Part shown: positions 2,420-57,977 of the stretch, in pieces
Layout: the number at the start of each line of letters is the position of its first letter
Numbering within the stretch: position 1 is the first letter of the stretch
Source of the DNA: Octopus vulgaris
Taxonomy: Eukaryota
Direction of reading: 5' to 3'
Length of the DNA stretch: 64,000 nucleotides
Assembly (NCBI GenBank): GCA_951406725.2
Contig: OX597825.1
Location: 45,446,001-45,510,000 of the forward strand
Position numbers and translations under genes: made by a program
Notes under the pieces: model-generated
Database searches by the model: none
Told to the model about the DNA's origin: nothing
What the model saw: only the letters and a program-made list of their open reading frames with translations

Positions 2420-2488
<69 letters not shown>

Positions 2489-2520
2489 TATATATATATG
2501 TGTATATATATATATATATA

Positions 2521-8450: not shown

Positions 8451-8482
8451 CCATATATATATATATATGGATATATACATAT

Positions 8483-8539
<57 letters not shown>

Positions 8540-8548
8540 TACCCATAT

Positions 8549-8584
<36 letters not shown>

Positions 8585-8710
8585 TTATATATATATAGAT
8601 ATATAAATATATGGATATACATATATATGGTTTTATATATATATATGGATATATATATAATTATGGATATATATGTATATGGTTATATATATATAGATAT
8701 ATAAATATAT

Positions 8711-15228: not shown

Positions 15229-15338
15229 TCTATATATATAAAAGGCAGTTTGTCTGTCTGTGTGTCTGTCAGGTTGTACCCTCACCCTGACCGCGGCTTT
15301 CAACCGATTCTGATGAAACTTGACACACACATAGCCCA
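15229..15338 (+). mobile_element. 5' end fragment of the same Helitron family as 41587
   Basis: TCTATATATA...GGCAGTTTGTCTG...CAACCGATTCTGATGAAACTTGACACACACATAGCCCA, as at 41587-41705. It is interrupted by the HHR element at 15339. Confidence 0.8.
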
Positions 15339-15888
15339 CCATCTCAATATGGCTAACCACAAAGGGTGGGTGTTACTGTAGCTTTTAGCCCCAGGAGATC
15401 ATCGTCTCCAGCTGGCTTTAGGCACACTATCTGTGCCCTTATGGTATTTGCAAAGGGAGGTCGTCCCTTTCTTGTAAGCCTAAGTGATACGCACGGACCG
15501 CAGTTTCGAGGTAGTTGCCTCTTGTCAACGGGCGGTAATCACCGGTTTACGATGAAAAGGAAGACCTTGTATGCAAATACTCAAGTGTTTTTCTTGTAAC
15601 TTCCGTCACTGATTTCGAAAAACTGTCTGCAAACAATAATAAATCTCTGAACGAGATGTAAACAGTAACCGCTCGACTATGTAAAGTATAATAGCCATCT
15701 CAATATGGCTAACCACAAAGGGTGGGTGTTACTGTAGCTTTTAGCCCCAGGAGATCATTGTCTCCAGAAAGGGATGACCTCCCTTTGCAAATACCATAAG
15801 GGCACAGATAGTGTGCCTAAAGCCAGCTGGAGACGATGATCTCCTGGGGCTAAAAGCTACAGTAACACCCACCCTTTGTGGTTAGCCA
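15339..15888 (-). mobile_element. Non-coding retrozyme/Penelope-like element A1 (356 bp monomer + direct repeat + inverted segment)
   Basis: 15339-15411 is repeated at 15695-15767; 15766-15888 is the reverse complement of 15350-15472; HHR at 15490-15534. Confidence 0.75.
15490..15534 (-). ncRNA. Minimal type I hammerhead ribozyme, U3-A8 variant
   Basis: Minus strand: CGCCCG-TTGACAA-GAGG-CAACTA-CCTC-GAAA-CTGCGG-TC-CGTGCG. GUC cleavage triplet; stem III region ACUGCGGU is self-complementary with G-U pairs. Confidence 0.75.
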
Positions 15889-17389
15889 ATGTGTAGCTTT
15901 ACAAATTTATTTTGTAATTTTGGTTTGCAATTATTTATAGTTAAATGTTTCCTTTCAAAGTTTTTACTTTCAAACAATTTATTCATGCACATTTTGGACC
16001 TAACAACCTGTATGAGAAAATCGTTTTGACTGAAAGAATTTTGAAAGGGTTTTATTTTTAGACTGGGGTCAAACGGTCTTCAACCATATTTTAAATCTTT
16101 AGCAACACCAATTACAAAGAACTTGGGAGTGGTACTGAAAGACGGAGAGAAGTATTTGACAGACAGAAAGAGAGAGTTACACATTTTAACTGGGTGGGAG
16201 CTGTCTTCAATAATTCAAGTAATGCTATATATTCAAAATTAACCATGCATGCTGGTTTTGTTGTTGTTACTGTTGTTATTGTCACTTACTTTTTTTTGTA
16301 TTTTGACACTACTTTCCTTCAAAAGTTAGTGGTCATAAACTCCCTAGGGAATTTTATGTCAGCTTCATCACTTTTATTTATTATTATTTTTTTCCTTTGT
16401 TTTGAGACGAGATCGAACTTAAGAATTTTATACCGATAAATTTTAGACGCTTTTTTCTGAAACTGGTAAGATTATGCAGGAGGTGCAAATTTTGATCTTC
16501 CACCCACTGAGAATTCTAGGGGGTGCAGGTGCACCCACTGTACCCCCTGTTCCCGGACCCTTGAAAACAGGCCTAACGGATGTGTTTAAATGAATTAGCC
16601 AATTGGAAATAGATCAAGAATTTACGTGACCGCTCCCTAAACCCTAATATATTTTAAATATTTAATATGCATAGGTTAAATAGCCAATAATTTAAATGAC
16701 TGCTTCCTAACCCCCAATATAATTTTAAATATCTTTATATATTTAATATGCATACTTTAACGCAAACCTTGGACTAAATTAAACTTGGACATGGAGTTAC
16801 TACTATGTTTTTTAAAATTAAATTTATTTGATTATGTGGATGTATTAATTTTAATATCCAATAACAAGAATGTAAACATTGTGAAATCTAATATGCATAG
16901 AACGGGAACTTATATTTTGTGGAACTAACCTTGCCTGGACTTGTAATTCGGACTGAATGTTTTGGATGCTAGAATTTAACTTGTTCGTGTTAAGTAGATG
17001 CGTTAAGTATTATTTAGATTATGTTTGTATAATATATTCATACGCAAATATCTTGTTTGTGTATGTGTATATATATATATGTGTATGTGTGAATATTTAT
17101 ACTTTGTACCTTGTTTCATGAATTTTTGTTATGTTGTTTAGTATTATCGTTAAAACAACAATACTGTTGGTATTGTTAAAAGTGGTAGTATATTACGTTA
17201 GAATGCATTTACTGGACTGAAGCATGATAATCCAATGTAATGTGATATATTGTTCAATGTTGTTATTTATGTATTTTGCACATGTGATTACTATGTACGA
17301 TTTGCCTATGTATGTATATTTGTATATTTTATATGTATATATGTGTTTATGTATATATATATATATATAAAACATTACGTTATATAGTT

Positions 17390-17981
17390 AGGGTTCAGTA
17401 AAATAATTTACTTTACCACACACCAAACTTTTAGAAATAGCAGCCAAATAATTTTAGCTATTTCCTCTACTATTGTCTCCCAGCCAATGTATACTCAAAA
17501 ATAATTCACGCAGGTATAGAGGGAAAAATAACGAAAGATCACACGTACATCGATTACTTGATATATATATATATATATATATGTATTTTGAATATTTGTC
17601 TTATTATTTATTTTCTTGTTGTTATTGGATAGTAAGTGAAGCATGTTTTTTATATATTAATATTATTATTGTACTTTTCTTGTTATGTATATCCTCTGAC
17701 GAGGCCTTTGGTTATTTAAACATACAAATATAATTTTTAATGCCTAGGACTATATTACAATGGCATCTATAGGCAATTTAAGTTGAATTGACTTTTGACC
17801 ATAGGTTGAAACAGCTGTAAGGAGCAGTTTATTTGTATTATTTTAATTTTTATTATTATATTACATATTGATGTTTATTGTTTTGTTCGATTTTGATGTT
17901 CCCATTTGTATAATTAATAAATAATGTGAAATTGTAATATCCGTAAGTTGATGATCGAAATGAATTTTCTTATTTGTATTA
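17390..17981 (+). mobile_element. Non-coding hammerhead-bearing repeat, family B, copy 2
   Basis: Homologous to 2001-2335 (reverse). The 5' part (AGGGTT...TAGAAATAGCAGCCAAA) resembles the arms at 47750-47894; the 5' boundary is uncertain. Confidence 0.55.
17692..17823 (+). ncRNA. Type I hammerhead ribozyme motif with expanded stem II
   Basis: TCCT-CTGACGA-GGCCTTTGGT-(85 nt)-ACCATAGGTT-GAAA-CAGCTG-TA-AGGA. Stem I TCCT/AGGA is perfect; GUA triplet. Confidence 0.65.
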
Positions 17982-17994
17982 TGAATTTACGGTA

Positions 17995-18985
17995 AAAGCA
18001 TTTTTTGGCTTTATTGAGAAAATTCTATAGTTTGTAAGATATTTGTTGTTGTTTTTCTGCAATTTCAATCAATCAGTGACGTCTATTGAGTTAAAAAGCA
18101 TTCTGTGCCGTATGAATCTGTCCCTCGTTTAAGAAACAGATTGGGTTTATTTACATTTGTAAAGAAAAAAAGATACCCTTCCCCCACCCCTAACCCAAAC
18201 TAACCCTAAAACAGATTGAAATGCAATAGATCGATACTAGGGTTATAATTATGGGTGACAATTTCATATGACACCACTAGAAAAAGCAGCCGTTTTTTCT
18301 TCACAAATGTAAATAAACCCAATCTGTTTCTTAAACGAGGGACATATTTAAGCAATCTTTCGTCTCTAGTAGACCTTTCCGTCGATTTCCGTAAAAATTT
18401 TTTTGTTTTTTACATATGGGCTTGCGGGAACTTTTGAAGTAATGAGAGCGAAAGAGACTAAGAGAAAGCGATTGTATGACGAGGGAAATTCTTTTGAAGT
18501 TACCGTGCATGGGAGCATTGATGTACATGTGTGTGTGTGTGTGTGTGTGTGTTTGATGGGGTGTGGGAGACAGACAGTATGTTGTGTAAGTGAAGTGCTT
18601 CTGTTAGTGTGTGTGAAGAGACAGAGTAATGTGTGAAAGAAAGAGTTATGTATATGTATGTATATTACTTCAAAAGTTCCCGCAAGCCCATATGTAAAAA
18701 AAAAATTTTTTAACGGAAATCGACGGAAAGGTCTACTAGAGACGAAAGATCGCCCATATTTATACGGCCCAGAATGTTTTCACCTCAACAGACGGTCATT
18801 GATTGGTTGAAATTGCCGAAATGCAAGAAATTAAAGACCAAATATCTTACAAACTATAGAATTTTCTCAATAAAGCCAAGAGAAAAAGATGTTTTATAAA
18901 CACATTCTACCAGTATACGAAGTTTAAAATTATTTAGTTACCTAGAAATTTATGTTAAAAACTGCCGTTCAAACCGAAAAGATCC
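17995..18985. mobile_element. Foldback/MITE-type non-autonomous DNA transposon, left end truncated
   Basis: ~17995-18160 is inverted relative to 18303-18350 plus 18755-18885. The right terminus ...GAAAAGATCC is shared with 20316 and 21239. Confidence 0.7.
18351..18754. mobile_element. MITE with ~90 bp TIRs and 8 bp TSD, nested in the previous element
   Basis: TIRs 18351-18442 and ~18664-18754 (GGCGATCTTTCGTCTCTAGTAGACC...); TSD CATATTTA at 18343-18350 and 18755-18762. Confidence 0.85.
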
Positions 18986-19303
18986 AGGATTTGTATTTTA
19001 ATGTGGTTTTGCATTATTCATATATCATGTACATACGTGTTATAAAGTATATTTATTATCCGATATCATCGGAATCTACACCATATGAAACGAATTTGTT
19101 GATATTTTCATTTAAAAAATCCATTTTTATGAAAGATATGAGGAAATAAAATCATTGGAGGAGTGAGGCTGGCCACTTGAGTAGGTTTGACATAAGTCCC
19201 AAATCAAACATTGAAATCGATTTACAAACTCTTTCTTTATAAGCTGATTGCCTTGACATTAATACACATAAATGTATGACGTATTACACATAATTATTTC
19301 AAT

Positions 19304-19370
19304 ATGGCTATTCTTCCCTGTGCAGTGTTTTCATCTCCTGATATTTCGGATTCTATAGATCTTATCAGGC
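19304..19370 (+). CDS. AAGAB: Alpha- and gamma-adaptin-binding protein p34, coding exon 1
   Basis: ATG...MAILPCAVFSSPDISDSIDLIR+C followed by the donor GTAAGT. Resembles the vertebrate N-terminus MAAGVPCALVTS; the phase-1 intron joins exon 2 in frame (C+AA = Gln). Confidence 0.8.
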
Positions 19371-20315
19371 GTAAGTAATAACTGATTAAGATCGTAAAAT
19401 ATATTAAGTACGGATAAATTTCTGTAATAAGTCATTATTTACTGTCGCTTTGTTTGCACGCTATTTTTTCTTAAATAATTATGATAGCATATTTAGACGT
19501 GTTTACTTATAATGTACGTATACGTACCATGTGTACATACGAAAGTATACGTTGAAGAGTTGCGGTGTATGTTTGCCTCTAGATTGAAATGTATCTGTCA
19601 AATTTGATGGCAAAACATTTCACTGAAGACAATGTTTTACTTATTAATTATTTGGTGCGGAAAAAGGGTGGCGATGGAAGGTGCAGTATATCTTTTCGAC
19701 AGGCATTTTCGCTGCGAGATTGTATTTTTAATTTCCTGTTAAAGAGTGAACATGTATTTATCTTTGAAATGATCTTAACGTAATGCCTATTCTTTGACAA
19801 GCATAACTACAGATTTCTGGGTAAATTTTCATTTACCGATTTCTGCCACCTCCCCCGACTTTGGATGATCGTAACTTTCAGAAAATGGATATTTTTAAAT
19901 AAAATTTTCTACGAATATGTATTATATCATTTAAATTCCGAATATACAAAATTTTAGGATTTGTGGGGGAAGCGTTTTAGGAGGGAATAGGGTGGGGAAT
20001 TTCAGAAAATTTACCGGAGTCCACTTCGTCTTAACTTTCAAGTAAATAGATATTTTTAAATGAAATCCTCCACAAATATACCTCGGACTATCTAGATTCC
20101 GAGGATATAGGAATTTGGGGGTGGGGAATAACTGGAGGTTATTTCTGAGAACTGTTCCCCACTTAGGGGTGTTTCGGAACAAATTCATATTTGTTTCATT
20201 TTGTGCGTTTGTGCATCCATAGATTTCCACTGAAGCAACTAACAGGCAATGAAGCCCTCACCAGAAAACTCGTTACGCTAAAAATAACAGCTAAAGTTCT
20301 GGTACACAGAAAGAT

Positions 20316-20487
20316 GGATCTTTTCTGTTTGATGGACGGAATTTTCTAGTTAACTAAAAAATTTGAAACTTTGTATACTGGTAGAATGTGTCAAACCCCA
20401 ATGCTTATTTTTTTAAACTCTGGTACTTATTCTGTTGAACTTTTTTGCTGAACTGCTAAAATTCCGTCCATCAAACAGAAAAGATCC
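20316..20487. mobile_element. Short MITE-like unit with GGATCTTTTCTGTTTGATGGACGGAATTT termini carrying captured SINE sequence
   Basis: TIRs at 20316 and 20459-20487; 20316-20457 is the reverse complement of 21098-21239. Confidence 0.7.
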
Positions 20488-20885
20488 AAGATATATTATC
20501 AAAGAAAAGGCCATAGCACCATCTTTAGTATCTGTTGTTATTATTATTATTATGGAGTTGAATGTGTGTGTGTGGTGAAGTTATTAATATCAATACATTA
20601 ACCAACACCATTGAAGTGAAATAATAGTTTCTATACTTTTGGTTTGGCACTGCTGAATTGAGTCAAAGACTATATAATACAAGTCAGCAGAAAAAGAAAA
20701 AAAATGCGATATCCATAACAATAACGAAATAAGACCTCCAAACCTTGTGTTTAAAATCTCCCTAACAAAAAGAAGAGAGGTTGTTTGGCTATGGACTACA
20801 TCAAAAAGTTTGCTCAAATCAAGTAAACTTATGAACCAAAGGTAGCCTAGCCATGAACATCTCAATGGTTTTCTTTCTTTTTGTC

Positions 20886-21160
20886 AGACATGGCTGTGTG
20901 GTTAAGATGGTTTCAAGTTCAGTTTCACTGCATGGCAATTTGGACAAGTGCCTTCTACTCTACCAGGCTGACCAGTGCCCAGTGAAAGAATTTGGTAGCT
21001 AGAAACTGTGCAAGTCTGTTGTATGTGTGTGTGTGTCTTTGTACCCCACCCTCACTACTTGACAACTGGCATTGGTTTGTTTACATTCCTGTAACTAAGC
21101 AGTTCAGCAAAAAAGTTCAACAGAATAAGTACCAGAGTTTAAAAAAATAAGCATTGGGGT
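20886..21160 (+). mobile_element. tRNA-derived SINE, decayed
   Basis: A-box-like TGGCTGTGTGGTTAAG and B-box-like GTTCAGTTTC, central (TG)n, 3' AGAATAAGTACCAG. Confidence 0.6.
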
Positions 21161-21324
21161 TTGACACATTCTACCAGTATACGAAGTTTCAAATTTTTTA
21201 GTTAACTAGAAAATTCCGTCCATCAAACAGAAAAGATCCTATATCTTTCTTGCTTATTTAAATTCAGTTCAATGCACACTTGCCTTGAACCAACCATTTC
21301 TCTTTGTGTTTATGTTCTTGATAA

Positions 21325-21790
21325 TTGTTTAGAACAAGTTGTTTTACACCTATTACACTTTTTATTTGTGGCCGGGTCAAACCCGGAACATTCACGATGT
21401 GAATTTTCCGAGTCCTCTCCCCACCCCCCTTTCGTAAGCGCGCATTTTTTTGTCATATTCGTTTAGAGCAAGTTGTGTTACACCTATTACACTATTTTTT
21501 TTTGTTTTTGTGCCCTCGTCAGACGCTTTCGGAAATGCGCTTTATCGAGCGCGCATTTTTTTCTCTTTTTATGTCATATTCGTTTAGAACAAGTTGTTTT
21601 ACACATATTACACGATTTTTTTTGTTTTTGTGCCCGGGTCAGACCCTCAGGCGCTTTCGGAAATTCACGATGTGAATTTTCCGAGGCCTCTCTCCCACCC
21701 ACCCCTTTCAAGAGCGCGCATTTTTTTGCCATATTCGTTTAGAGGAAGTTGTTTTACACCTATTTCACTATCTTTTTTGTTTGTTTTTAT
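21325..21790 (+). repeat. Diverged tandem array, ~120-155 bp units
   Basis: Four copies of GTTTAGA.CAAGTTGTTTTACACCTATTACAC with GCGCGCATTTTT motifs. Confidence 0.7.
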
Positions 21791-23645
21791 GACAGGGTCA
21801 ACGCTTTAGTTTGACTGAAATAATTCCCCCTTTGAACTTTTTTAATTGCATATATATATATGTGTGTGTGTGTGTGCGCGCGCACTCGTGCGCAGAAATC
21901 TACGGATGCCCAAACGCACAAAACGAAAAAAATCAAATATGGACGACTTGTTCCGAAACACCCCCGAATGGGGAACAGTTCTCAAAAATAACCCCCAATT
22001 GTTTTTTCCCCAAAATTCCTGTACCCGGAATCTCCATAATCCGAAGTATATTTGTTGAGAATTTCATTAAAAAATATCCAATTTAAGTGGACACCTGTGA
22101 ATTTTCCGAAATTTCCCACCCCATCCCCTCCTAAAGCATTTGTATATTTGGAATCTACATGATATAACACATATTCGTAGAAAATTTCATTAAAAAGTAT
22201 CCATTTTTCTGAAAGTTATGATCATCCAAAGTCGGGGGTTGGGGTCAGAAATCTGTAGTTAAGCCCCTTGACAAATGGAGTGCGTTAACCCCTACTGATT
22301 TTACTGCTGCTCCTGAATTCCTATAAGAAATACGGTTAATATATCGGGTAAGACCCGGTCACGGAAAAAAAAAAAAGTATCTTTTAAGTGTTAAAAAAAA
22401 AAAAAACGAATATGAAAGCAAAAATTTGCACAAACGAACAGGGGTGGGAGGAGAGGACTTTCGGAAAATTCACAAGATCCGATTTTTCCCTCATAACTTT
22501 CAGGAAAATGGATATATATTAATGAATAGAAATACCGTTCAAATGGCACAGATTACGATTATACCTCGGACTGGGTTTTACCCTATATATTAACCAAAAA
22601 TACTAAGGCATTCTATTTATGGAAAAAATTGATAAATATAAAATTTAATTGCAGGATTAGATATCATTTCAGCATACCTCCACTTGTGCCCCCGCCACCC
22701 GACTTCTTCGTAACTTTCAGAGAAATAGATATCTTTCGATGAAGTTTTCTACAAATATGCTTCAAATGGTATAGATTCCTATTATATCAGAATTTGGATT
22801 GAAAAAACAATTTTTCCAAGGGCGGGATGAGGAAATTAAGAAAATTTACATGAGTCGTCTTTGTTTCTTCATAACTTTCAGCAAATAGGATATTTTTTCA
22901 TGAAATTTTCTATAAATATCTTTCAGAGTGTGTAAATTATGATTACATCGTTATTTAACCTGAAAAAGAAAATTAGTGTGCACACACACATACATACTGA
23001 CACAAGTCACAATTGTTTTACGGAATTTCGAGTTTCATTTTGTAGATATCTATGATGTGTGTATGTATTTTTTCTGAAAGTTATGAGGAAAAAAAGCCGA
23101 TGCATGTGAATTTTTCGAAACTCACGAAATTTTTAGTTTTTTTTTTTTTATCACAGCAAATTCTGATATAATCGGAATCTACACTGTCTGAAGCGTATTT
23201 GTCGAACATTTCACAAAAAAAATATCCATTTTTCTGTAAGTTATGAAGAGACAAAGCCAGTGGGACACACATGTGGAGGTATCCTTAAAAATAGAAACTT
23301 AGTGTTTATTTTAGCCGACTTTGTTTATGTTATTTAACTCCATATCTGTTCTGATTGAGCAGACCTATGACCAAGGGAATTCCAATCTTTTTAGGAGTAC
23401 ATTATTTATTGCCATCCTTTAAAGCAGAAATATTTGAACATAAAAGAACCCTCATTACTGGTTTATAGAGGTTATTTGTTTCTTATAGGTATGCAGGTAA
23501 TGTGAGAGTTAAAAAAAGAGAGTTTTAAACTGCTTAAACTTGTCCAACTTGGTAGCAAAGTTTTGGTGTGTCTAGCCCTTGAAATCCCATGCCTCGCCCT
23601 TGAAATCCCATGCCTCATGAGAGTAGAAAAGAGTGGAATAATTTG

Positions 23646-26600
23646 TGAAATGAAGAAAATAAAACAAAGTTAACAATCAAAATAAGTATTCTTTATTCCA
23701 ACATAAGACCTTGGGGAAAGGTTCTTCTTGAAATAAATATTAACAGGATTATTATTGCAAAGAAAAGTTAATTAGAAACTGTTGATACTATTATGCCTGG
23801 CACATCCTACTACATTATATATGCCTGCAAAGGTTTCCTTATAGAATAGTCTAGAGGACACTCAAAAGAATCATATAATTCTCCCCAACCAAAATATTTT
23901 CTCTGAGTGAACATACTAGAACAGTGAATATTTACACGTCATGCCAAACTGGGGGTCGCCTCGCATGCTGGGACCGACATAATGGTAACTGGATAGGCTC
24001 AAGAGAGTTGAAGAAGTTTGGATCTGGTGAGTTCATTAGGGTTTGGTCAGAAGAGTTGTTTGGGGAAGACCCAACAGGAACTAAATTTGATTCACATTTG
24101 TCGACTGTTGGATTATTACTGGTCATTTGATTTTTCAATACGCTATTGGGAACTTTGTGGTCTCTCACTGCATGGTTCTAGATCACGCAGTGATACATTA
24201 CTTTCACGACCATCTGGATATTGGATACAGGATACTGGGGGTTTGATTCAATCAAATGAACCTTGTCATCCTTATTTTGACTGGCGAATATAACATTTCA
24301 ATAAGACAGGACCTGGATTACTCAACCATGTTGGAATTGATGTCCCATTTAGAGATCTTCTTGCAAAATTGAACTTTCATTCATGAGAAGTAATATTTGT
24401 TGCTGTACAAAGTAGGGAGCAGATCGAGTGAAGTGCATCTGGCAAAACAACCTCCCAAAATTTCACATCAAGTTTTCTGGAGCAACAGGCAAATTTAATT
24501 ACTTTCCAAATGATATCATTGTATCGTTCATACCGTCCATTCCCTCTTGGGTTATATGGGCATGTTTTACTAGTGGCAACATTTTTACTGTGAAGCCATC
24601 CTTTCAATTCCTCCAACAAAAAGCAGCAGCCTCTATCCAAATGCACATATCTAGGCATACTGAATACTAAGAATATTGAGCAAAGACTCTTGATGACTGT
24701 TGGAGTTCTAGTGTCTCCACTTGGAATAGCAAAAAGAAATCTAGAATATTCAACTTCTGTTAAAATATATTTGTTATGAGTAGCAGATGGAAGTGGATCT
24801 TTAAAATCTAACAGTGATGTTGCCTAAATATGCAAATGTGGCTATTAGATTGTTTGCAGATATAAATTTATCTATAGATCATTGAAAACAAGCAACACCA
24901 TTAGTTATTCCTCGTGGTATTCTCGTAAATTGCCACAGTTTGCTGTTAGCTTCAAAGGTGGTGAACTTTTTATCTTCATCACGAAGAAGAACTTGGTAGT
25001 ATGCATGTTTGAGATCAATGGTTCTGTATACACTATAATTCACAATGTTATTGATCTGATCAGAAATCCAAGGTAGTGGGTATGCATCCATTAAGTTGAG
25101 TGAAATGATTTACTGTCTGGAAATAATCCACAACCATCTTTGTTTTTTTTTTTGGTGTTCTTTGGCAGCAACAACTTGGCTCGATAATGCCTTCAGCCAA
25201 GAGACATTGGACTTCCAACTTGATAAAATCTCGATTTGGCTTACTGTAATAATGAGATTTAACAGCAATTGGTTTACAATCTGCTGATAAATTATTGAAT
25301 AATTCAGGTGGAGTAACCAATAATGTTGACAATCCACATAACTCAACATTGAGGCTTTTATGTTGAGAAAGTATATCCTGACCAATAATGATGTCCATGC
25401 AGAGTGACTGTGAGTACAGTCCTGAAGACATAAAGTGACCATGACACATCCAATGACAATTTCTTTCAGTGAAGGCTCTGCCATGGCTACTGTAGATGAA
25501 GCTGAAGTTACTTTCAACTGTAACTAGTTAGCAAGTCATTTAGAAATGAAGTTATTTGAGCTTCCAGTATCAACTAATGTGTCAGCAACCACAGAATTAA
25601 TTTTTACATGGATTATTGTTTTCCGAAAGCTGTTGGGAGAGGCAGCTAGAGTGGGATCTACCTTCTGAAGAACATATTAAAATGCAGACAGAGTTGCAGA
25701 TGTATTTGAACTTTTAGCAGAAGAGGACCTACATACCTTAGAGAAATGTCCTAATTTCCCACAATTATTACAAATCGCTTCTCAAGCGGGGCAATGTGTC
25801 CAATCATGTCTATCATGTCCAATCATGTCTATTGACACCACAGAAAAAACAATTTCCTTTCATTTTAGTGAATCCTGCATTTAGTTGTAATTCATTATTA
25901 ACTGCTCTTAAAGCTGATGAATTGTATGCATCTGAGGTTTTCTGAGCTACCTCTAGAGTCTGACTGGGTGACTGCTGCGTCAAGTGTTATGGTTGTATTT
26001 TGTAATAGACTCTGTTGAATGGGATGAGATATAAGTCCATTGATAAAAGCATCTCTAATCATTTCTTGTTGATAAATTACTCCAGTTACATCCTTGAAGG
26101 TACGATCTTTGGCAAACAACCGCAAAGCACTGAGATATTCATCAAAGCTTTCTCCTAGCTGTTGATGTCTAGTAGCCAAGCAGTGTCAAGCATATATCTC
26201 ATTCCTTGGCGCAATATGTAATTTCTCAAGGTTTGCGATTGCCATGTCATAATTAGTGCAATCAGAAATGAATTTGAATACTGTTGGTGACACAAAATTA
26301 ATAAGGATATCAAATTTGTTCACAGCATCATGATTTGCACTTACCAAAGTAAGGAAGCTTGTGAAAGTTCTCTTCCAGTGTACCCATGCCTTGTTAGACC
26401 CTTTAGTGCTTGGTATGGCGTCGAGTGTTTAGGACGTAAAAGTTTATCCATAATATTTAGATTGAAATGAAGGAAATAAAACAAAGTTAATAATCAAAAT
26501 AAGTATTCTTTATTCCAACATAAGACCTTGGGGAAAGAGGTTCTTCCTGAAATAAATATTAACAGGATTACTACGGAAAAGAAAAGTTAGAAAATATTGA

Positions 26601-26692
26601 TACTATTATGTCCAGCACATCCTACTACATTATATATGCCTGCAGAGGTTTCCTTATAAAATAGTCTAGAGAACATTCAGAAGAATCATACA
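23646..26692 (-). mobile_element. Ty3/Gypsy LTR retrotransposon, internally deleted and decayed
   Basis: LTRs 23646-23877 and 26463-26692 (TG...CA); PPT GGTTGGGGAGAAT. Gag from ATG 26451 (MDKLLRP..., CCHC knuckle), protease DTGSS, partial RT (DLKHAYYQV...FTRIPRGITNG), integrase (DRG, YNPRGNG.YERYN). RT end and RNase H are missing. Confidence 0.9.
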
Positions 26693-26890
26693 GTTGGATT
26701 TTTGCAGTTTTTTTTTTTCTTTCTTGTGATTTTATTTGTATAAAACACAGGAATACAGAAAATAAAGAAAAAAAATACCTTTTAATATTGACTGACAAAA
26801 TTTGTAGAGCACTATGCCAATTCAAAAAAATTGTTTCAGCTCTATGCTCAGAATTCAGAGTCCTTTAATTGGTTATGTATGCCAAATTTA

Positions 26891-28090: not shown

Positions 28091-28879
28091 TAAATCATGA
28101 TAAATACCATAATATCTAATCTTGATTAACTGACTTTTCCAGCCTGTTTGAGTTTTATGCTACATATCCCCTTTGGAAAGGTAGAAATATAATTATCATC
28201 TCATAACCTTACTTTTATATATATGTTTATTATTTTCATTACATTTTATAATGTGAACAATTAGCAGTAAAGTGGAATAAAAATAGAATTTGCAATATTT
28301 ATTTATGTCTCTTCGTGTATAAAGTTCAGATATGTAAGCTTAGTTTTAAGAGGGGAGTGTAGCTAATTAAGGAGATCCCAGTACATACTGTATTTGAACT
28401 TAGAACACAAAGAGTTGCATATAAATTCAGCAACTCCATTTTTATGTTACATTTACTACATAATGAACTTGTTGATAACAATAAGTTATGGACAAATGTC
28501 TGGACATAAGTTGGCTCAAAGAGAAACAAAAGACATAAGAGAAGCATGCTTAAACAACACATATAGGAGCAAGCAAAAAGGACTAAAACAGCACTTGCTA
28601 AAAATGAAAGGGGCTTGGCCTCTTGTAACTGTTTGAGGTGAGGCAACAGAAGCTTCATGTACCACATATTTGCCCACAGGCTCATTGATTTCTGGTTCCT
28701 TGTTATTGTACCCAATATGAGCAAGTTGTGAGTTCATAGGTCACAAGAAATGGCATGCTGAGAAGTTAGTATGTACTTACAAGTACTAATGCACCCCCCC
28801 CACACACACACAAAAGAAAAACTCTCAGGGCACTGAGTGCAGAAACAAAATCAACAAGACTTTGCAGGGGCCATAAAGA

Positions 28880-29430
28880 ATAAGGACACACAGGAAATAG
28901 ATTTTCTAAAATGCCCTGAAGGCATTAGAAGTAGTGGATAATTTCAGTAACCTTGGTGACCTAATTAGCAGTAATGTTTTGAAAGTATGATTGCTAAAAT
29001 AAGAATAGGACAGAGAAAATTCAAGGAGCTATTACTTCTATTGGCTACAAAAGGTCTCTCCCTGAATGAAAGGCAGAGTGTATGATGCTTGTATTTGAAT
29101 AGCAATGCTACATGATAGTGAGATGTAGGCTGTGAATGCAGAGAATATGCAAAGACTAGAGAGTAATGAAGTTAGCACGATCCATTGACTGAGCATGTAC
29201 AACAAAGTGCTAAGAGGAATCAGATGTAGTGTGCAAGAAAGATGACTGCACTGGTTTAGTCATATGATGCCTATGGATAAGGACAGTTGCATGAAGAGGT
29301 GCCAGCTACTTTTGAAAGAGGAGACCCAGGAAGACATGGAACAAAGTAGTGGAGGTTGTGCCGTACAGAAGAGATGACAAATGAATGAGACAGTTGGCAA
29401 TTTGCTGTACTCAAGAAAAACATAACACAG
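28880..29430 (+). mobile_element. Old RTE LINE fragment
   Basis: Decayed homology to 10860-11430 (LEVVDNF..LGD, KFKELLLLLATKGLSL, YDAC). Confidence 0.75.
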
Positions 29431-30779
29431 CAAATACAATGTGCTAAAAGCATTCTGATTATGTTTGTGACCTATTCTGCCCCATTAAGCATTCCTTACG
29501 TCCCCATTGCCCTGACAAACAGCCCTCCATCACCTCGCTATCTATGGCACCATCTAATGGTTGTAATGATTTGAGAGTGTTGGCACATACTACTCCTCTC
29601 ACTTTCTTTACACAACCAGTTATCTCCTTCCCCATTATCCTCCTTTCTCCACCCATGCTATTTCACTGATTACCCTTCTCTGCTTTCAATTGTCTCTCCT
29701 CTGCCACATTCCATTTTATTTCATTCTAGGCACTCTTGCATACATACCATCATTTCACACTCACTATAACCACCCTTATGTACCCTTACATCTCCCTCCT
29801 TTCCACTCCAACATCATCCTGTTGCTCATTTCCACTCTTACACCTTGCACATCATCACCCCCATCTATCCTTTATGAGCCATTCTATCTCTCAATTTATC
29901 TCCTTTCCATATAGATATTTCCCATCAAGCATACCTCCTCTACTCCCATTTCTAATCATCTGTTACTTTCCCCTTAATGACAACCTATGTTTTGTGTTCA
30001 TACAAAGGCAAACTTCAGAAACAAGCATTATATCAAAAGAGAGCTGCAGGCTACTTAAGACGAAATAAGACAAAAAACTAAAGTTGAGTAAAAATACAAC
30101 ATACCAACAAAGGATACATCAGTATCACCAGATGCTGATGTCTCCTGATAATTTCTTTCAGCTCCATCTGAAATGATTATTGTCTAGAAGTCTGCTTTTA
30201 TTCTGTGATTGGGAATATGTCCCACTTTGTCCATATGCATATTTTTCTATATTTTATTTTGTCTCTCCCCCTACTCCCTGGCAATACCCTGCCAGCACCT
30301 GCCACTATTCATCTCTCTCTTCCTTACTCTACCATCCTGTCTGCACCCTGATCCCTTACTTACTGCCATCCCTCCTGCTCTTGCTATCTCCTACTCTCTC
30401 TCTCTCTCTCTCTTTCTCTTTCTTCCCTCTGGTTGAATAATCATGTATCACCTCTACAGCAACAAACCTGTTTCTACCCTCATTCTTGATCATTCTCTCT
30501 CCCTCCTTTTGCTCTTACCTCTGGGTTGGTAACTATGTGTCTCCTTTACAGTAGCACACCTCTTTCTTGTTAACTCCCCCCTCTCTCTCTCTCTAGGTAA
30601 CCATGCCACTCCTCTTCAGTAGTATACCTGTTTCTGCCCTCATTCTTATTAACTCTTGCTCTCTTTCTCTGGCTGGGTAACCATGTATTCCTCTACAGCA
30701 AGACATCTGTTTCTGTCACACTAACTTTTCATCATCTGACACAAGATCACCTCCTCCAATTCCCCCTCCCCTCTCAAAG

Positions 30780-31060
30780 ATTCCTTGTCTTGCAAAGTTA
30801 CTTGGTGACCCTGCCAGTGCAGATGTCACTTAAAAAGCACTCAATTCACACTGTAAAAACCATGCCAAAATTGACTTTGCCTGTGCAAGTGCCACATAAA
30901 ATGCACTCAGCTCACTCTGTGGAGTGGTTGGTGTTAGGAAGGGCTTCAAGTTGCAAAAACCATACCAAAAACAGACACAGAAGCATGGCACAGGCTCTTG
31001 CCTGGCCTGCTCCTGTCAAACCATCCAACCCATGTTAGCATGGAAGGATGATGATGATGT
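30780..31060 (+). mobile_element. RTE 3' UTR / RTE-derived SINE fragment
   Basis: GAGTGGTTGGTGTTAGGAAGGGC...CCAACCCATGTTAGCATGGAA...(GAT)n, as in 11865-12020. Confidence 0.7.
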
Positions 31061-31765
31061 TCCAGTAGTTCTGAGAAGAGAGACTGAATCACTAATTACA
31101 GCTGAAAGATTGATCAAAATTAGATAGACAGCAAATGCAGATTATGCCAAAAGGAGATGAAAGTATACATGGTTGTACATGAATGCTGTTTTTTTTTGCA
31201 TGCACCACACATATGACTAATATTCTTTATGGTTATTGTAGTACTTCCCATGCATGCATGGAAGATGAACATTAAATGATAATGATTATTTTATATATTT
31301 TATCATACTCTCTGCTCATTTCCCCACCTCCCATCATGAACAACTGCACATTTTTGCCTATCTCTTTTCTTCAAATTTTTGTCTTTATAATTCTAACCAT
31401 TCCTTGCAGCCTCTTAATTCATTATGTTTATGACTACACCTTCTTTATCTCAGCTCTTTCTCCTCCTCTTCCCACTTTGCATGTCTATTTGTCCATTTCT
31501 TTTGCCTTTGTGTTGTTTTCTCACTTATTTTCCATCCCACTCATTTCAACCTGGATCTTGTTACAAACTTTGCTGCCTCTTCTATCTCATTTCCCTCATT
31601 GTATACCTTGCAGACTACTCATATTACTTCTCAGTGGTTTTTCTACTTCTCTCCTATTAGAGCAACAATGACTGAAATATCAACTAATGTAAAAATATTT
31701 TATTGACTTAATTTAAATTCCTCTTGGTGAATCTTATTAATGATAATTACTTATTGATGTTTTAG

Positions 31766-31947
31766 AATTGCTCAATGTTGAGGAGTTACCTACAAGTGAA
31801 GAAGACAATGGGTACAAGTGGAATATAAACAACAAGTACTACACTGCACAAGTACAACTGTATGCCTTGCCAGATGCCACCTCTCCAGTTTGTAGGCAAT
31901 ACCCTGATTCAGTACAAGCTGTTATTCTCTATTTTGATGCCAATGAG
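31766..31947 (+). CDS. AAGAB: AAGAB coding exon 2
   Basis: TTTAG acceptor and GT donor at 31948. Encodes LLNVEELP...YKWNINNKYYTAQVQLY...DSVQAVILYFDANE, matching the AAGAB signature W.I.NKYY.A and VQA.V.YFD. Confidence 0.9.
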
Positions 31948-34900
31948 GTTTGCAATGCATTTATAGCTTTCTTTTGCATATTTGAAAAGCATTTCCAGAC
32001 TTAAAAATTCAAAAATCCAATGAATCCAAAGTATTGATGAAAGTTGTTATTACAATTCCGATAGTCCATGGTGTATTTAGAGCATCAGGATTCTAATGTT
32101 TCTTAGCATACCTAGCTGACAGAAATATATAATAGATCTTTGAATATTACCGATAATTGTCAAACATTATACATGGAGATGATTTATTTCTTATCTGTTG
32201 CTTAAACCATAAAACTGGTGTTGAAAAGTAGCTTGGATTCTAGAGACATTTGCAACTTCATCATATTTGATATTTTCAATATCATGATGCACTGTCTCCT
32301 ACTGAAACTGCCTGTGTCACTATTTGAAAACTGCTCTGAGCTTCCTATTTGCTGGGCTACTTACAGGGCTCTAAGTAATGATTAGCTGCAATGCATGAGT
32401 CATGGTTTCTTATAGTGCCACTCTTGGTGTTCCTCTAAAGATTGTGGTCACTGTTGTTCCTCTTGACTAAACCATGTTTCTGGTTGAAATCCAGTTTAAA
32501 TAATAAAGACCAGTAACTGAGCTAGATTCAAGGGAATGTATTCTTTTCTTTACTGAAAAAAAAGTCATTAACCAAAACAAATCGTTATAAATAGTGTATC
32601 ATAACATAATACAGTCTGTTTTACTGGCAATTTTCCTTGCTTACCCTACAAAGAATAGACTTTGTGCAATATGCATAACTCTCATTCTCTGACATAATCT
32701 GATACAATATTAATCTGATACAATACATTGCTATGTATATTCACATATGAAATCAGTTACATGCTACTGACTTCACTTTTTGTATAACTGATTTTAGTTT
32801 ACCCAGCATATCTTGAAATATTCAGTGAAAAAAAGCAAAATTTGGAACAACAAAAGAATAAAATTTTATTTTGTTGAGTTAATAAAATTGGTGCCAGTGT
32901 TCATCTGACAGCACACTTTTTTTCTTTTTTGATGCTTTAATGTGAGGAGATTGAAATAGGAGGAAAAGCCATAATTCATAGGTTATCCACAAACTGGTGG
33001 CATGACTTGAATACCTGCAACAAAGTGAACTTTACTAAAGAAACTTGTAAAGTGCAAAGTGGTTATGTTTAACCAGGTAACAGGTTATGCCTACCACCCA
33101 AGAATGGATACAGTCACCTTTCTGTACAGTTCACCTTTCCCCTAACTATGGCTGGAGACACTGAGTTGCCTGAGTTGCTGTTTATTGAAATCAAGCCCAA
33201 AACCATATGATTGCAAAGGGACTTTTATAACCGTGTGCCTGAGCCATTACAAATGTGTAACCTTGAGCCAGTTTTAAAAAAAAAATCATTGTTTTTATTA
33301 TCTGAATTTGAGAGTAAAGTAAAATGGAATGATAAAAATGTGTTTACAGTTCATTTAACAATATTATTGTAAAGAAATGTGAATAAAAGAGAGTCATTTA
33401 CTTTCTACATCTGCATGGTGCTTTCAGAAAGTGTAAAATCATAAAATCTAAAACTTTAATTACTGGAATTGAATCGAAGAAAATAAATATTAAAATGATT
33501 TTCACAAATTAGTCAACTAATACTGGATTCAGTTTCTGAATAGCAAGGATAAGATTTTGTAATAAAATATCAATGTTAGCCTAGAAGCATCATAAGATTG
33601 AATCAAAATGAAAAGTATATGGAAAATATGCATTTGTAATTATTTAGCTTCTGAAGTATGTTTGTACCTATGACCTGCACAGTTGATGTTCAATTTGAAC
33701 TTCTATAGGTCCACACATAGATGGAAAAAAACACGAGTAGGGAGTGCTGCAATTCCTGGTATAGTGGATTACAAAAAGTGTTTCATACAGAGTTTAATGT
33801 GTGAGAAGGGATGCAAAGAATGCTGTCTTTATAGGAGTAGTTGTTGAATGTGATGGCAAGTAAGCTGTTGATGTGCAAGTGTGTAAGGGAGACAACTAAA
33901 CCTTAGAGTTAATGTAGGTTAGTGAGTGCTCCATCAGTGCATGTGATGGTGTGATCTGACATGATCTTCCCAGTCTAAGAAATGGATAAAGCATAACAGA
34001 TCTTTTTTTTTTTTTATCTAAGAGACTTGCATGTCAAACATGATCAAATATTTCATTGACTTTTAAGTGTAACAATTTCGTTTTCACTAAATTTTTCAAG
34101 TATGAGAGCCTGGTGAACATTGAGGAGATTTAAGGTTTTGGAGAAGGTGATTAACAAATATCTCCAAAACCTTTGGAAGTGAGTGATAAATTGGGTTGCT
34201 CTGTTTCTAGGAATATAATAAAATGTGTGTTTCCAAAGATCAGGACAGATCCCTTTAGAGTGAGATTGAAGAATTTGACAAAGATAAGAAATAGCTTGGG
34301 AGCACATTGTCTGAGCATAATGAAAAGAGCAATTTGGACCATTAGCCTTGAAAGTTTGAAGCAATTTTACCTAGTGTGTGCAGTGTGGAGTTGGATGCAA
34401 GTGAGCTGCAAATGGGAAGGCTTTCTTTATGGGGGTACTGTTTATGGAAACATTATGGTCGAAAAGTAAAGATTAGCTTGTGTTCTGTGGCATGCACTAA
34501 ATCCTGTTTTACATTTCATATGATGGTCTTGCAGTTTCAGTGATGGATAAAGTTGTCCACCATATGATGAGTGGGGTTTTTTCCCCAAGCATTGTAAGAT
34601 CATGTTCTTTGTACTCCCACAGTGCTGCAGTGTGTGAACCATTTAGTAGATTTAGGGTTTTGTGCTTTAGTTTTGTGTAAGATGTGAAGGGAAATACTTA
34701 AGAGGATGGTTTCAGTCACCTACTTAGTTATTTCTGATAGGTAGAGGTAATACACATACAATGTAAGGAATAGTTAATGTAGAGCTATAAGCACCCCAAC
34801 TAGCTAGCTGATTTGAAGTGCCAAAGTGTGAAAATGTTTGTTGTGCAATGTGATGTATCCATCATGTGATAAGGCATTGTTGATCTAATAAATGCAGAGA

Positions 34901-34962
34901 TAGTGATGGTTAGGTAGAGGCTGTATTCAGTGATAAGAAAGTGATTTAGAGTATATAGAGTA

Positions 34963-35350
34963 CTAGCAGTATCGCCCAGCGTTGCTCAGGTTTGTAAGGG
35001 AAATAACTATAAAGCATTTTTAGAGAGTTATAGCCAAAAAATAGCAAAAAGATGGAAAAAAATGATGGTAAATATTTTTTTTAGTTAAAAAAGGTGGAGT
35101 TGCGTCCCCTAGACAGTTTGCGGTTTGTGTTTCTGATTCTCGACCCCATGTCGAATTTATCGATTTTTTTCAGAACTGGGGGAACTTTTCGAAATTTTCG
35201 CTGCGTTAGTTTTGAATTATGACATTGGGCTATGTGTGTGTCAAGTTTCATCAGAATCGGTTGAAAGCCGTGGTCAGGGTGAGGGTACAAGAAAACAGAC
35301 ACACAGAAACACGCACAGACAAACTGCCGTTTATATAGAGAGAGAAGAGA
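34963..35350 (-). mobile_element. Non-autonomous Helitron
   Basis: 5' TC...TATATAAACGGCAGTTTG, with ~250 bp matching 41587-41835. 3' hairpin and CTAG at 34963-34966, shared with the 49568/50069 copies. Confidence 0.88.
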
Positions 35351-36376
35351 TATTTATGAACCAATGGGGGAGACCTCTATATGGTAGCTAGACCTAATAG
35401 AAATAGCAACCAAATCTCCCTCGAATTATACCAACTGTCTGATGTACGTATAAGCCAGTGTGGGAAACTACTACATAGTAGCTATAGCTGTTAGAAATAG
35501 CAGCTAAATCTCCCTCAAACCAAACCCTACTATTTTATGTATCTATGTATGTATGAGTCAGTGTAGGAGACTTCTCCATGGTAGCTATACCTCAAAAATT
35601 CCTTGTCTTGCAAGTTACTTGGTGACCCTGCTGGTGCTGGTGCTTATGTATGTATAGATTTATAAGTTGATCTGAGATGCATAAGGGAATGAATCTAACT
35701 GTTGTAGAAAGTTAGGATTGTAAAAGATTCAGTTCTGTATGAATAGCATTGAAGTTGCTGAGGATGTAAGATAGATGTCCTCAGTGTTTGAAGAAATGGT
35801 TGTTGGAAGAGACACAAAGGCAGCGGTTGCATTTAGACGAGTTGGGAAGATTTTGAGTAAGAGTAATCAAAAGTCATTGTGATGAGAAAGGAGAGTAGAA
35901 TCTATTTGCAGACTTTCCCTTTCAGAGTTAAGTTTGAGTATACTGTGGCTTGGATTGATGTTAAACTAGGTGGTGGATTGTGTCTACCATTAAAAAGGGA
36001 AGTTTAGAGGGGAGCTGTGGTGTTTTATCATCAATGCTTTTTATCCTCTTGAAATGACTATCAAATTCGATTCAACTGAATGGTTTGATCAAATACTTCC
36101 ATTCGATATCCTTCTCCACTATGGAGATGTTTTGATGAATGTTATAATGGACATAGCAAGCAGGCAGGTTGAATCAGTGTTTGTTGACATCTGGAAATGT
36201 TTCTATTATGGCTGTTCATAGCAAATTAGGAGGTAGACTAGTCCATTGTTTGTTGTGATAAAATATTTAATAGTGGATAGTGACTGGTCAGCTCAAATAT
36301 TTCTGTTTTCATTTTTCTCTGAAATACATTATATATCAGTTTATTTTCCCTTTCTTTAAAATGTATACATATTACA

Positions 36377-36934
36377 GAAATATTAATATTACTAAGTCTC
36401 TCTAAAAGAGATTGCGGCAGCGTCGCTAGAAATCAATTGTTATCGCCATATTAATATGGCATTCTTATTATAAGAATAAAAGCTGTCCGCTGATTAGCTC
36501 CATGAGGCCAAACGCCTTAAGATAGCTATGATACACAAACTGTATCCATTTTTAACCTTCGAACAAGGGAGGTCAGCCGCTTCACACTGCCAGTCCGACA
36601 GCTACAGACGCGTTTCAGGGTATTTGCCCTTTGTCAATGTAGCGCAGTCAGACCTCAGCAGGTGGCGACACTGACATCTCTGTTCGAAGGTTTTTATTTA
36701 TCTAGTTTCAGTGGAATACATCCACTTGTTCTTAATAACAGAAATATTAATATTACTAAGTCTCTCTAAAAGAGATTGCGGCAGCGTTGCTAGAAATCAA
36801 TTGTTCGAAGGTTAAAAATGGATACAGTTTGTGTATCATAGCTATCTTAAGGCGTTTGGCCTCATGGAGCTAATCAGCGGACAGCTTTTATTCTTATAAT
36901 AAGAATGCCTTATTAATATGGCGATAACAATTGA
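36377..36934 (-). mobile_element. Non-coding retrozyme/Penelope-like element A2 (364 bp monomer + direct repeat + inverted segment, 13 bp TSD)
   Basis: 36374-36441 is repeated at 36738-36805; 36801-36935 is the reverse complement of 36432-36566. TATACATATTACA flanks both sides (36364-36376, 36935-36947). Confidence 0.8.
36601..36643 (-). ncRNA. Minimal type I hammerhead ribozyme, U3-A8 variant
   Basis: Minus strand: GCTACA-TTGACAA-AGGG-CAAATA-CCCT-GAAA-CGCG-TC-TGTAGC. Perfect stems I and II, palindromic ACGCGU stem III, GUC triplet. Confidence 0.8.
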
Positions 36935-37554
36935 TATACATATTACATTATATTGAAATGCAAACTCAGTTGTAGCTGGTTCTTTATGCCAACCATTTTC
37001 CTTAAAAAGATTTGCATGGTGTGTATATTATCCATCCATCCATCCATCCACCCATACATATATGCATAAAATTGATTCTACTTTATATATAAAATGATTC
37101 TACCATTCATGTGTTGAATACATATACCAGCTTGGTGCCTGGTATGAATAAGACCACCAAAAACTGCAATATGAAAGATGCTCAAAAGAACAACCTCACT
37201 GCATCAACTATTGTACAGGTTAACAAGGAATATTTTCTGTTCTTAGGTAGAGGGTCCCATTCAAAAAATATATTGCAGTGCTGATACAACCAACAATAAG
37301 CTTGCAACTTGTTCTTGGAGGCACAGGGTAGGAGCACAGAGGATGCATGTCCCAGGACCTTGAAGCAGGTCCAAGAGGGATCAACCATTAATGATTTCAT
37401 ATTGAAATGTTATAATTCTTAGAGGCAAAGAGTAGAAACTGTTGCCAGAGAGATATAGTCAGTGTTACCTCTACAGTGTTCTGTGGGTCTGGTACCATAG
37501 ATTTGGATGGATGATGAATGAAACTCTACTGTTTGGGTGTGATGCCAATCACAA

Positions 37555-51893: not shown

Positions 51894-54076
<2,183 letters not shown>

Positions 54077-54349: not shown

Positions 54350-57977
<3,628 letters not shown>

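What the first reader, a model, noticed from the sequence alone, without database searches (positions are those of the whole stretch)
15339..36947. Candidate retrozyme system: two divergent non-coding elements share one architecture and a U3-A8 hammerhead
Seen: elements 15339-15888 and 36377-36934 have no obvious overall sequence similarity. Both nonetheless consist of a 356/364 bp monomer, a 73/68 bp direct repeat of the monomer start and a 123/135 bp inverted copy of an internal segment. Both carry a minus-strand minimal type I hammerhead with core UUGACAA instead of CUGANGA, a 4-bp stem II with loop CAA(C/A)UA, a self-complementary stem III and a GUC triplet. Both have AAGGGAGGTC about 30 nt from the ribozyme (15453-15462, 36565-36574). 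Known: C3 and G8 pair in the active hammerhead, so U3-A8 is a compensatory variant rather than simple decay; minimal HHRs with palindromic stem III occur in Penelope-like elements and animal non-LTR retrozymes and are thought to work as dimers. Inference: this is a diversified family of non-autonomous, ribozyme-processed (possibly circular) RNAs mobilised by a Penelope RT. Searches using only the canonical core would miss it.
Basis: partly seen in the sequence, partly recalled or inferred. Interest (0 to 1): 0.9.

Follow-up and report, generated by a model that had tools for sequence, protein, structure and literature searches.

The report
Penelope-driven retrozymes with switching hammerhead core
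Both elements are copies of a large family of ~360-base non-coding repeats that carry a predicted self-cutting RNA (hammerhead) and bear the insertion marks of Penelope-like retrotransposons, which likely move them; this kind of element is known, but here the hammerhead's core base pair differs among related subfamilies and inverted copies almost always pair one short with one long end, a likely clue to how copying starts.

Summary
E1 and E2 belong to families A and B of one non-LTR retrozyme superfamily (353-364-nt units, thousands of candidate copies, tandem arrays; A and B about 60% identical). Their type I hammerhead has the canonical animal architecture, not the 'minimal' one. U3-A8 is fixed (110 of 110 A/B copies) and the stems covary. 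U3-A8, retrozymes and the tandem-plus-inverted layout are all published. Not found in my searches: (1) sister subfamilies carry C3-G8, U3-A8, U3.G8 and C3.A8, each amplified; (2) insertions end at two fixed sites about 172 and 220-236 nt 3' of the predicted cut, often at (TA)n, with 9-16-bp target duplications, and 63 of 65 classifiable inverted insertions pair one short with one long end, as do 7 of 7 inverted copies of a young autonomous Penelope-like element that also has U3-A8; (3) 5' ends do not pile up at the cut (2 of 79). Likely mechanism: a Neptune-type reverse transcriptase primes both target strands at two internal sites of a circular or multimeric RNA. Cleavage, circles and the partner enzyme are untested. 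New variant of a known kind.

The parts
15339..15888 (-). E1, whole family-A retrozyme insertion: long arm 15339-15767 (1.2 units, minus strand) plus inverted arm 15766-15888; both outer ends fall short of the family end sites (+157, +146 from the cut)
15483..15543 (-). E1 type I hammerhead with outer helix; U3 at 15528, A8 at 15523; predicted cut 15496/15495; one C-U mismatch in helix I shared with its subfamily
15453..15462 (-). GACCUCCCUU motif, one arm of the predicted rod that extends helix I
15694..15709 (-). GCCAU-N6-AUGGC hairpin just 5' of the short end site (near-complete second copy at 15339-15353)
15695..15767 (-). 5'-truncated piece of the preceding unit (the 73-nt direct repeat): copying ran past one unit
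15766..15888 (+). inverted second arm of E1
36375..36935 (-). E2, whole family-B insertion: long-end arm 36375-36805 (end +232) and inverted short-end arm 36801-36935 (end +176)
36594..36652 (-). E2 type I hammerhead with outer helix; U3 at 36637, A8 at 36632; predicted cut 36607/36606
36565..36574 (-). GACCUCCCUU motif of E2
36445..36460 (-). GCCAU-N6-AUGGC hairpin 5' of the short end site
36375..36431 (-). 'tail' between the short and long end sites, present on this arm only
36364..36376 (.). target-site duplication, left copy (13 bp)
36935..36947 (.). target-site duplication, right copy (13 bp)

Best explanation
E1 and E2 are insertions of a non-coding, tandem-forming retrozyme superfamily whose ~360-nt RNA is predicted to self-cleave by a type I hammerhead and is likely copied into DNA by the reverse transcriptase and GIY-YIG endonuclease of an autonomous Neptune-type Penelope-like element. 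Shown in sequence: unit length, arrays, conserved fold, two fixed 3' end sites, ragged 5' ends, (TA)n/AT-rich targets, 9-16-bp duplications, the one-short-one-long rule, and read-through of the cut site. Inferred steps: (1) arrays are transcribed; the hammerhead, probably as a dimer through its palindromic helix III, cuts monomers that are ligated to circles (by analogy with mussel and axolotl retrozymes; about 60%). (2) The endonuclease makes a staggered cut about 12 bp apart. (3) One target strand primes reverse transcription at the short site (+170-181) and the other at the long site (+216-238), usually on the same source RNA; both run 5'-ward through the intact or re-ligated ribozyme site, often past one unit. 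(4) The two cDNAs are joined at a few bases of microhomology, giving the head-to-head form; loss of one cDNA gives the simple truncated form. The core 3-8 pair is under selection to pair, but single-step U.G and C.A states are tolerated long enough to amplify.
For: Families: 3610 and 2578 first-look candidates; arrays of up to 10 units; no long ORF in E1/E2. Fold z -5.8 and -7.6. Covariation: 88% of 678 cells paired, 19 of 21 pairs with two-sided change, against 69% shuffled and 23-48% slid. Two end classes: A 23 at +170-175 and 11 at +216-221 of 36; B 10 at +169-177 and 22 at +227-238 of 33. 80 two-ended insertions: 63 long+short, 2 short+short, 0 long+long, 15 with an end outside both classes; 79 one-ended: 40 short, 38 long, 1 other; 40 of 42 without family B. 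Duplication >=9 bp in 12 of 20 two-ended insertions with non-microsatellite flanks, against 4 of 300 shuffled flank pairs; 120 of 239 3' ends beside (TA)5+; 2 of 79 5' ends within 5 nt of the cut, about 2.4 expected. Of 60 copies picked by their 3' part, 50 extend past the cut, 9 do not, 1 unresolved. Arms as alike as or more alike than any other held copy in 35 of 57; short arm the longer one in 22 of 63. An autonomous 781-aa RT+GIY-YIG family with many identical copies has a U3-A8 minimal hammerhead-like motif, two end sites into (TA)n, and long+short ends in 7 of 7 inverted loci; a second, 775-aa family also has U3-A8. Two internal RT starts equal the tail, and both strands are cut and extended, in Poseidon in vitro (PMC11167929).
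Against: No cleavage, circle or RNA end was observed. No sequence homology was found between retrozyme units and either autonomous family, and no chimeric insertion links them, so the partner is unidentified. U3.G8 (994 matches, control 91) and C3.A8 (374, control 59) include amplified, tandem subfamilies, and the youngest 775-aa subfamily has GCAA in place of GAAA, so full ribozyme activity may not be needed. In vitro, Poseidon inserts without cleavage, and no start-site difference between strands was seen. In 22 of 57 insertions another copy matches the short arm better than its partner arm does. Gene conversion could also make arms alike. Only 1 of 9 Xenopus dimers cleaved in vitro.
Confidence: 0.7

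Rival explanations
1. Same element and enzyme, but the template is uncleaved multimeric read-through RNA; the hammerhead is slow or dispensable for transposition and no circle is used.
For: Read-through of the cut site fits uncleaved RNA equally well. U.G and C.A subfamilies amplified. In Poseidon, unprocessed RNA is the main substrate (PMC11167929).
Against: Core, helices and palindromic helix III are kept by covariation across subfamilies 55-85% identical. Paired 3-8 states outnumber unpaired ones about 6 to 1 (8090 against 1368 matches). Many copies exceed one unit although most sampled loci hold fewer than two full units.
Confidence: 0.2
2. The units are pseudo-LTR fragments (5'-truncated copies) of an autonomous Penelope-like element not yet seen.
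For: The layout is the same as for autonomous elements (PMC8557442). Only two autonomous families were read in full; other GIY-YIG families exist.
Against: Upstream of the hammerhead lies the same unit again, in arrays of up to 10. No PLE ORF is contiguous with a unit in the loci held; the one abutting case is an 80%-identical internal fragment. The autonomous families have a different, minimal-type ribozyme motif.
Confidence: 0.06
3. Satellite DNA or MITE/Helitron-like DNA elements spread at the DNA level, with the inverted arms acting as terminal inverted repeats.
For: Tandem arrays and inverted ends exist; a 64-nt piece of family A rides inside a Helitron-like repeat.
Against: Arm lengths vary from 30 to about 2000 nt with ragged inner junctions; half of the insertions have one end only; fixed 3' ends with ragged 5' ends mark reverse transcription; the two ends are unequal by rule.
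Confidence: 0.03

Closest known systems
Animal non-LTR retrozymes (Cervera & de la Pena 2020, PMC7229834; Mytilus 350-390 bp, axolotl 330/350 bp)
   Same: Non-coding 350-365-nt tandem units, canonical type I hammerhead with weak palindromic helix III, highly paired fold, duplications longer than 4 bp, coexistence with PLEs carrying minimal hammerheads.
   Different: Core is U3-A8 in families A and B, with all four 3-8 states in the superfamily; two fixed internal end sites and paired inverted insertions were not in the parts read; expression and circles not shown here.
Non-LTR retrozymes as non-autonomous PLE derivatives (Li et al. 2026, 10.64898/2026.07.22.740005)
   Same: Same conclusion on the mobiliser.
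   Different: Their evidence is co-occurrence and pLTR homology, mostly in vertebrates; here no pLTR homology was found, and the evidence is the insertion signature.
Penelope-like elements, Neptune/Nematis type (Craig et al. 2021, PMC8557442)
   Same: Partial tandem, inverted 5'-truncated copy, tail often at one end only, microsatellite bias.
   Different: No ORF; tail 47-60 nt rather than 30-40; canonical rather than minimal hammerhead; one-tail rule counted (63 of 65).
Poseidon PAc (Frangieh et al. 2024, PMC11167929)
   Same: Two internal RT start sites 3' of the hammerhead define the tail; both target strands cut and extended; AT-rich targets.
   Different: No strand difference in start site was seen in vitro, whereas here the two ends of one insertion use different sites; PAc is autonomous, with C3-G8.
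U3-A8 hammerheads (Perreault 2011, PMC3088659; Schistosoma Cercyon min-HHR, PMC4209133)
   Same: Natural U3-A8 covariation of the core pair.
   Different: Here in canonical-architecture retrozyme hammerheads, beside amplified U3.G8 and C3.A8 sister subfamilies.

Membership tests
Non-LTR retrozyme | Short (150-450 bp) non-coding unit in tandem and dispersed copies | tested here: met
   353-364-nt units, arrays up to 10, thousands of candidates
Non-LTR retrozyme | One type I hammerhead per unit, canonical helix sizes | tested here: met
   core variant U3-A8
Non-LTR retrozyme | Highly self-paired monomer | tested here: met
   z -5.75 and -7.60, linear fold
Non-LTR retrozyme | Target duplication longer than 4 bp when present | tested here: met
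   9-16 bp in 12 of 20 two-ended and 9-13 bp in 10 of 30 one-ended insertions
Non-LTR retrozyme | Self-cleavage of monomer or dimer RNA | not testable with these tools
   needs an in vitro assay
Non-LTR retrozyme | Expressed as linear and circular monomer RNA | tested here: inconclusive
   only assembled contigs of runs guessed to be RNA; they cannot show ends, strand or level
PLE-mobilised element | 5' truncation, partial tandem, inverted 5'-truncated copy | tested here: met
   80 two-ended and 79 one-ended insertions
PLE-mobilised element | Optional tail (two 3' end sites), often at one end only | tested here: met
PLE-mobilised element | Intact RT+GIY-YIG partner in the same genome with matching target bias | tested here: met
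   781-aa and 775-aa families ending in (TA)n
PLE-mobilised element | Sequence homology to the partner's pLTR | tested here: not met
   none with the two families read; other families not read in full
Autonomous PLE | ORF with RT and GIY-YIG endonuclease | tested here: not met
   no ORF of 120 aa or more in E1 or E2
min-HHR of PLEs (Cervera 2014) | Long helix II (7-8 bp), short helix I, helix III absent or rudimentary | tested here: not met
   4-bp II, 6-bp I with outer helix
Neptune clade (candidate partner) | C-terminal GIY-YIG with CX2-5CxxC linker; RT phylogeny | tested here: inconclusive
   linker motif and domain order seen; these do not separate Neptune from Nematis, and no RT tree with reference sequences was built

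The most novel reading that the evidence does not exclude
Penelope-type retrotransposition is an obligatory asymmetric twin priming: one complex uses both internal start sites of one circular RNA, one per target strand about 12 bp apart, which by itself explains the tail, the one-tail rule, the inverted pseudo-LTR and the more-than-unit copies. This retrozyme superfamily also preserves a natural record of a ribozyme core pair moving between C-G and U-A through both U.G and C.A intermediates that stayed mobile.
Probability: 0.4. Interest if true: 0.72.

Novelty: new variant of a known kind. Interest (0 to 1): 0.52.

Why it matters
How animal retrozymes move, and how Penelope-like elements make inverted and tailed insertions, are stated open questions (10.64898/2026.07.22.740005; PMC8557442). 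A 360-nt RNA with two mapped start sites, a near-strict end-pairing rule and intact candidate enzymes in the same genome is a compact substrate for testing this. Sister subfamilies differing at the 3-8 pair give natural variants for measuring how much catalysis a retrozyme needs. In practice, a canonical-core pattern misses about half of the hammerhead-shaped matches counted in this genome (4509 non-canonical against 4949 canonical).

Tried and rejected
Rfam scan of the window at E<=1: 131 matches, none a hammerhead and none above a gathering score. Whole-window repeat finder: swamped by microsatellites. RNA evidence: no RNA holder listed on record; contigs of 7 different runs under four organism labels hold families A and/or B, but cannot show ends, strand, level or circles; used neither for nor against expression. 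Partner search: two U3-A8 hammerheads 5.65 kb apart (L121) proved to be a retrozyme split by an L1/Tx1-like LINE; 3.6-kb and 1.4-kb spacings (L189, L190) held no PLE ORF; an A-like piece 1.3 kb behind a PLE ORF (L125) is separated from it by microsatellite and other sequence; the A piece in L341 lies in a Helitron-like repeat, not joined to the PLE. Linear cleaved monomer as main template: rejected, no pile-up of 5' ends at the cut. Copy-back of one arm from the other as the general rule: rejected, because the short arm is the longer one in 22 of 63 and some long-end arms are tail only. UUGACAA as decay: rejected. The protein homologue search gave no clade name. Circular folding with shuffles did not return; linear folds were used. 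Earlier findings of this scan: none returned. Przybilski & Hammann 2007 and Lunse et al. 2016/17 are not held.
Full report
OBSERVATION. All coordinates hold. Each element is a long arm of about 1.2 units on the minus strand plus an inverted arm. A scan allowing any base at core positions 3, 7 and 8 finds only these two type I hammerheads in the window, with cuts predicted at 15496/15495 and 36607/36606. The Rfam scan at E<=1 lists no hammerhead among 131 matches. The window lies in a 2.8-Gb genome of 227 contigs, rich in microsatellites. An octopus-like mollusc is my inference, not a tool result.

FAMILIES. E1 (family A) gave 3610 first-look candidates and E2 (family B) 2578; 40 were scored and 30 loci kept for each. 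Copies have fixed 3' ends and ragged 5' ends, often with an inverted arm, and some form arrays (10 units in L155). Among copies fetched without using the core, de-duplicated by context and still matching the rest of the motif, 52 of 52 A and 58 of 58 B hammerheads are U3-A8; copies decayed elsewhere in the motif are not counted. A and B are homologous: 61% identity, z 9.8, and 58%, z 7.6, without the ribozyme, colinear through the shared GACCUCCCUU motif and the GCCAU-N6-AUGGC hairpin. The shared 10-mer is one arm of a predicted rod that extends helix I.

RIBOZYME. The architecture is what Cervera & de la Pena call canonical: helix I 6 bp, helix II 4 bp, short palindromic helix III. It is not their min-HHR. 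On 33 rows spanning the superfamily, 88% of 678 cells pair and 19 of 21 pairs change on both sides (shuffled 69%; slid 23-48%). The two invariant pairs were fixed by my search pattern, and relatedness inflates the shuffle control. The self-complementarity of loop III is itself kept by two-sided changes.

THE 3-8 PAIR. One pattern shape, genome-wide: C3-G8 4949 (control 121; any base at position 7), U3-A8 3141 (178), U3.G8 994 (91), C3.A8 374 (59), the last three with a pyrimidine at 7. These patterns also catch unrelated hammerhead families. Each state occurs in tandem arrays or repeated identical copies of 353-364-nt units: L177 C-G, L147 U-A, L192 C.A, L193 and L194 U.G. Of 161 hammerheads passing a downstream-motif filter, 40 went into a tree with positions 3 and 8 masked. 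It needs 10 changes (minimum possible 3); starred branches force at least 5 for U-A. Four rows are single copies that may have mutated after insertion, and recombination was not modelled, so 10 is an overestimate. The firmer result is that one cluster linked at >=91% holds U-A, C.A and C-G subfamilies and another holds U.G and U-A. Pairing is favoured about 6 to 1, but unpaired states were mobile.

INSERTION SIGNATURE. 3' ends fall at two sites 3' of the cut: A +170-175 (23 of 36) and +216-221 (11); B +169-177 (10 of 33) and +227-238 (22). Across seven subfamilies, 80 de-duplicated insertions are head-to-head, both outer ends being element 3' ends: 63 long+short, 2 short+short, none long+long, and 15 with an end outside both classes. 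One-ended insertions split 40 short, 38 long, 1 other. The query favoured long ends in family B; without B the count is 40 of 42. Where flanks are not microsatellite, 12 of 20 two-ended insertions have a 9-16-bp duplication (control 4 of 300) and 10 of 30 one-ended do (2 of 300). 120 of 239 3' ends abut (TA)5+. Only 2 of 79 5' ends lie within 5 nt of the cut. Of 60 copies chosen by their 3' part alone, 50 run past it, 9 do not and 1 is unresolved (after correcting unit offsets in five rows by hand). The template therefore has an intact or re-ligated cut site. In the 63 long+short insertions the arms are a median 98% alike against 93% for typical other copies; in 35 of 57 comparable cases (5 too short, L036 mis-aligned) no other held copy is closer, and in 22 one is. 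The short arm is the longer one in 22 of 63, and junctions mostly overlap by a few bases (BLAST end extension may add 1-2). E2 is a textbook case: long end +232, short end +176, 13-bp duplication. E1 is trimmed at both ends and sits between a Helitron-like fragment and another repeat.

CANDIDATE ENZYMES. A GIY-YIG search gave 6136 candidates, dominated by a young family with an intact 781-aa RT+GIY-YIG ORF, a preceding ORF and a CX4CxxC linker; at least 31 copies are identical over 341 nt. It carries a minimal-type hammerhead-like motif with U3-A8, ends at two sites into (TA)n, and all 7 inverted loci held are long+short. A second family (775 aa) also has a U3-A8 core motif, in its youngest copies with GCAA for GAAA. 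Neither shares sequence with the retrozymes, and no chimeric insertion was found. 'Neptune-type' rests on the linker and the microsatellite bias (PMC8557442); Nematis is not excluded.

MECHANISM. See Best explanation. Shown: anatomy, end sites, pairing rule, duplications, read-through, core states. Inferred: cleavage, circles, twin priming on one RNA, identity of the enzyme. RNA data were uninformative.

LITERATURE SEEN. PMC4209133, parts 1-2 of 4: U3-A8 min-HHRs in Schistosoma. PMC3088659, passages: natural U3-A8; its in vitro activity is cited there to a paper I could not read. PMC7229834, passages and parts 2-3 of 6. 10.64898/2026.07.22.740005, parts 1-3 of 5. PMC11167929, parts 1-2 of 4. 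[quoted passage not shown] PMC13282606, passages: an octopus repeat annotation with no occurrence of 'ribozyme' or 'hammerhead' in its main text. PMC7151607 and PMC6765202, passages. No supplements or figures were seen; the supplementary alignments of PMC4209133, PMC3088659 and PMC7229834, and Lunse et al. (not held), may already show U.G or C.A cores or mollusc U3-A8 retrozymes. Seven searches showed no report of amplified U3.G8 or C3.A8 retrozymes, of a counted one-short-one-long rule, or of this family; subscription journals, Repbase and Dfam were not searched. The likeness to twin priming of L1, and of the CAAAUA loop to the Schistosoma hammerhead, is recalled.

VERDICT. Real, and a new variant of a known kind. 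The headline feature (U3-A8) is known; the value lies in the end-pairing rule and the four-state core series, both directly testable. Interest 0.52.

Noticed in passing
window 41589-47665 (+): Autonomous-type Helitron: a repeat 5' end at 41589, then ORFs with STPR repeats, Helitron_like_N/Rep and Pif1 domains, broken by stops; similar 5' ends at 15229-15338 and 35226-35343.
   Followed up: partly
window 2375-3688, 6880-8682, 39362-41080, 60118-63317: Several LINE-type RT and AP-endonuclease ORFs.
   Followed up: no
L123:1081-4781; L339:2275-6182: Both young Penelope-like families have a 480-560-aa upstream ORF overlapping the RT ORF by about 80 nt in another frame; a programmed frameshift is possible.
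   Followed up: no
L339:7100-7135 and L337-L346: The youngest 775-aa PLE subfamily has GCAA in place of the conserved GAAA of its hammerhead-like motif yet has many intact copies; older copies keep GAAA.
   Followed up: partly
L341:2719-2781: A 64-nt piece of family A captured inside a Helitron-like repeat; the same junction appears as a common loose end in run contigs.
   Followed up: partly
L157-L175, L185-L188, L153-L154: Further hammerhead families beyond the A/B superfamily filter, with canonical or U3-A8 cores, some in inverted pairs.
   Followed up: no
L190:2038-6497: A U3.G8 retrozyme fragment amplified four times within a 1.38-kb tandem unit, i.e. DNA-level amplification with flanking sequence.
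   Followed up: partly
L121:1775-7832: A retrozyme interrupted by an L1/Tx1-like LINE, with about 235 nt of the retrozyme, hammerhead included, repeated on both sides.
   Followed up: partly
window 15889-16563: E1's right flank is the distal part of another dispersed repeat (120 candidates); its usual upstream part is replaced here by E1.
   Followed up: partly
P0030, P0042, P0056, P0059, P0071, P0097, P0109: Close relatives of the PLE protein are filed under bacterial gill-symbiont assemblies, probably host contamination.
   Followed up: no
window 52200-54100 and 56800-58000: Very long (TA)n tracts, GC below 6%.
   Followed up: no
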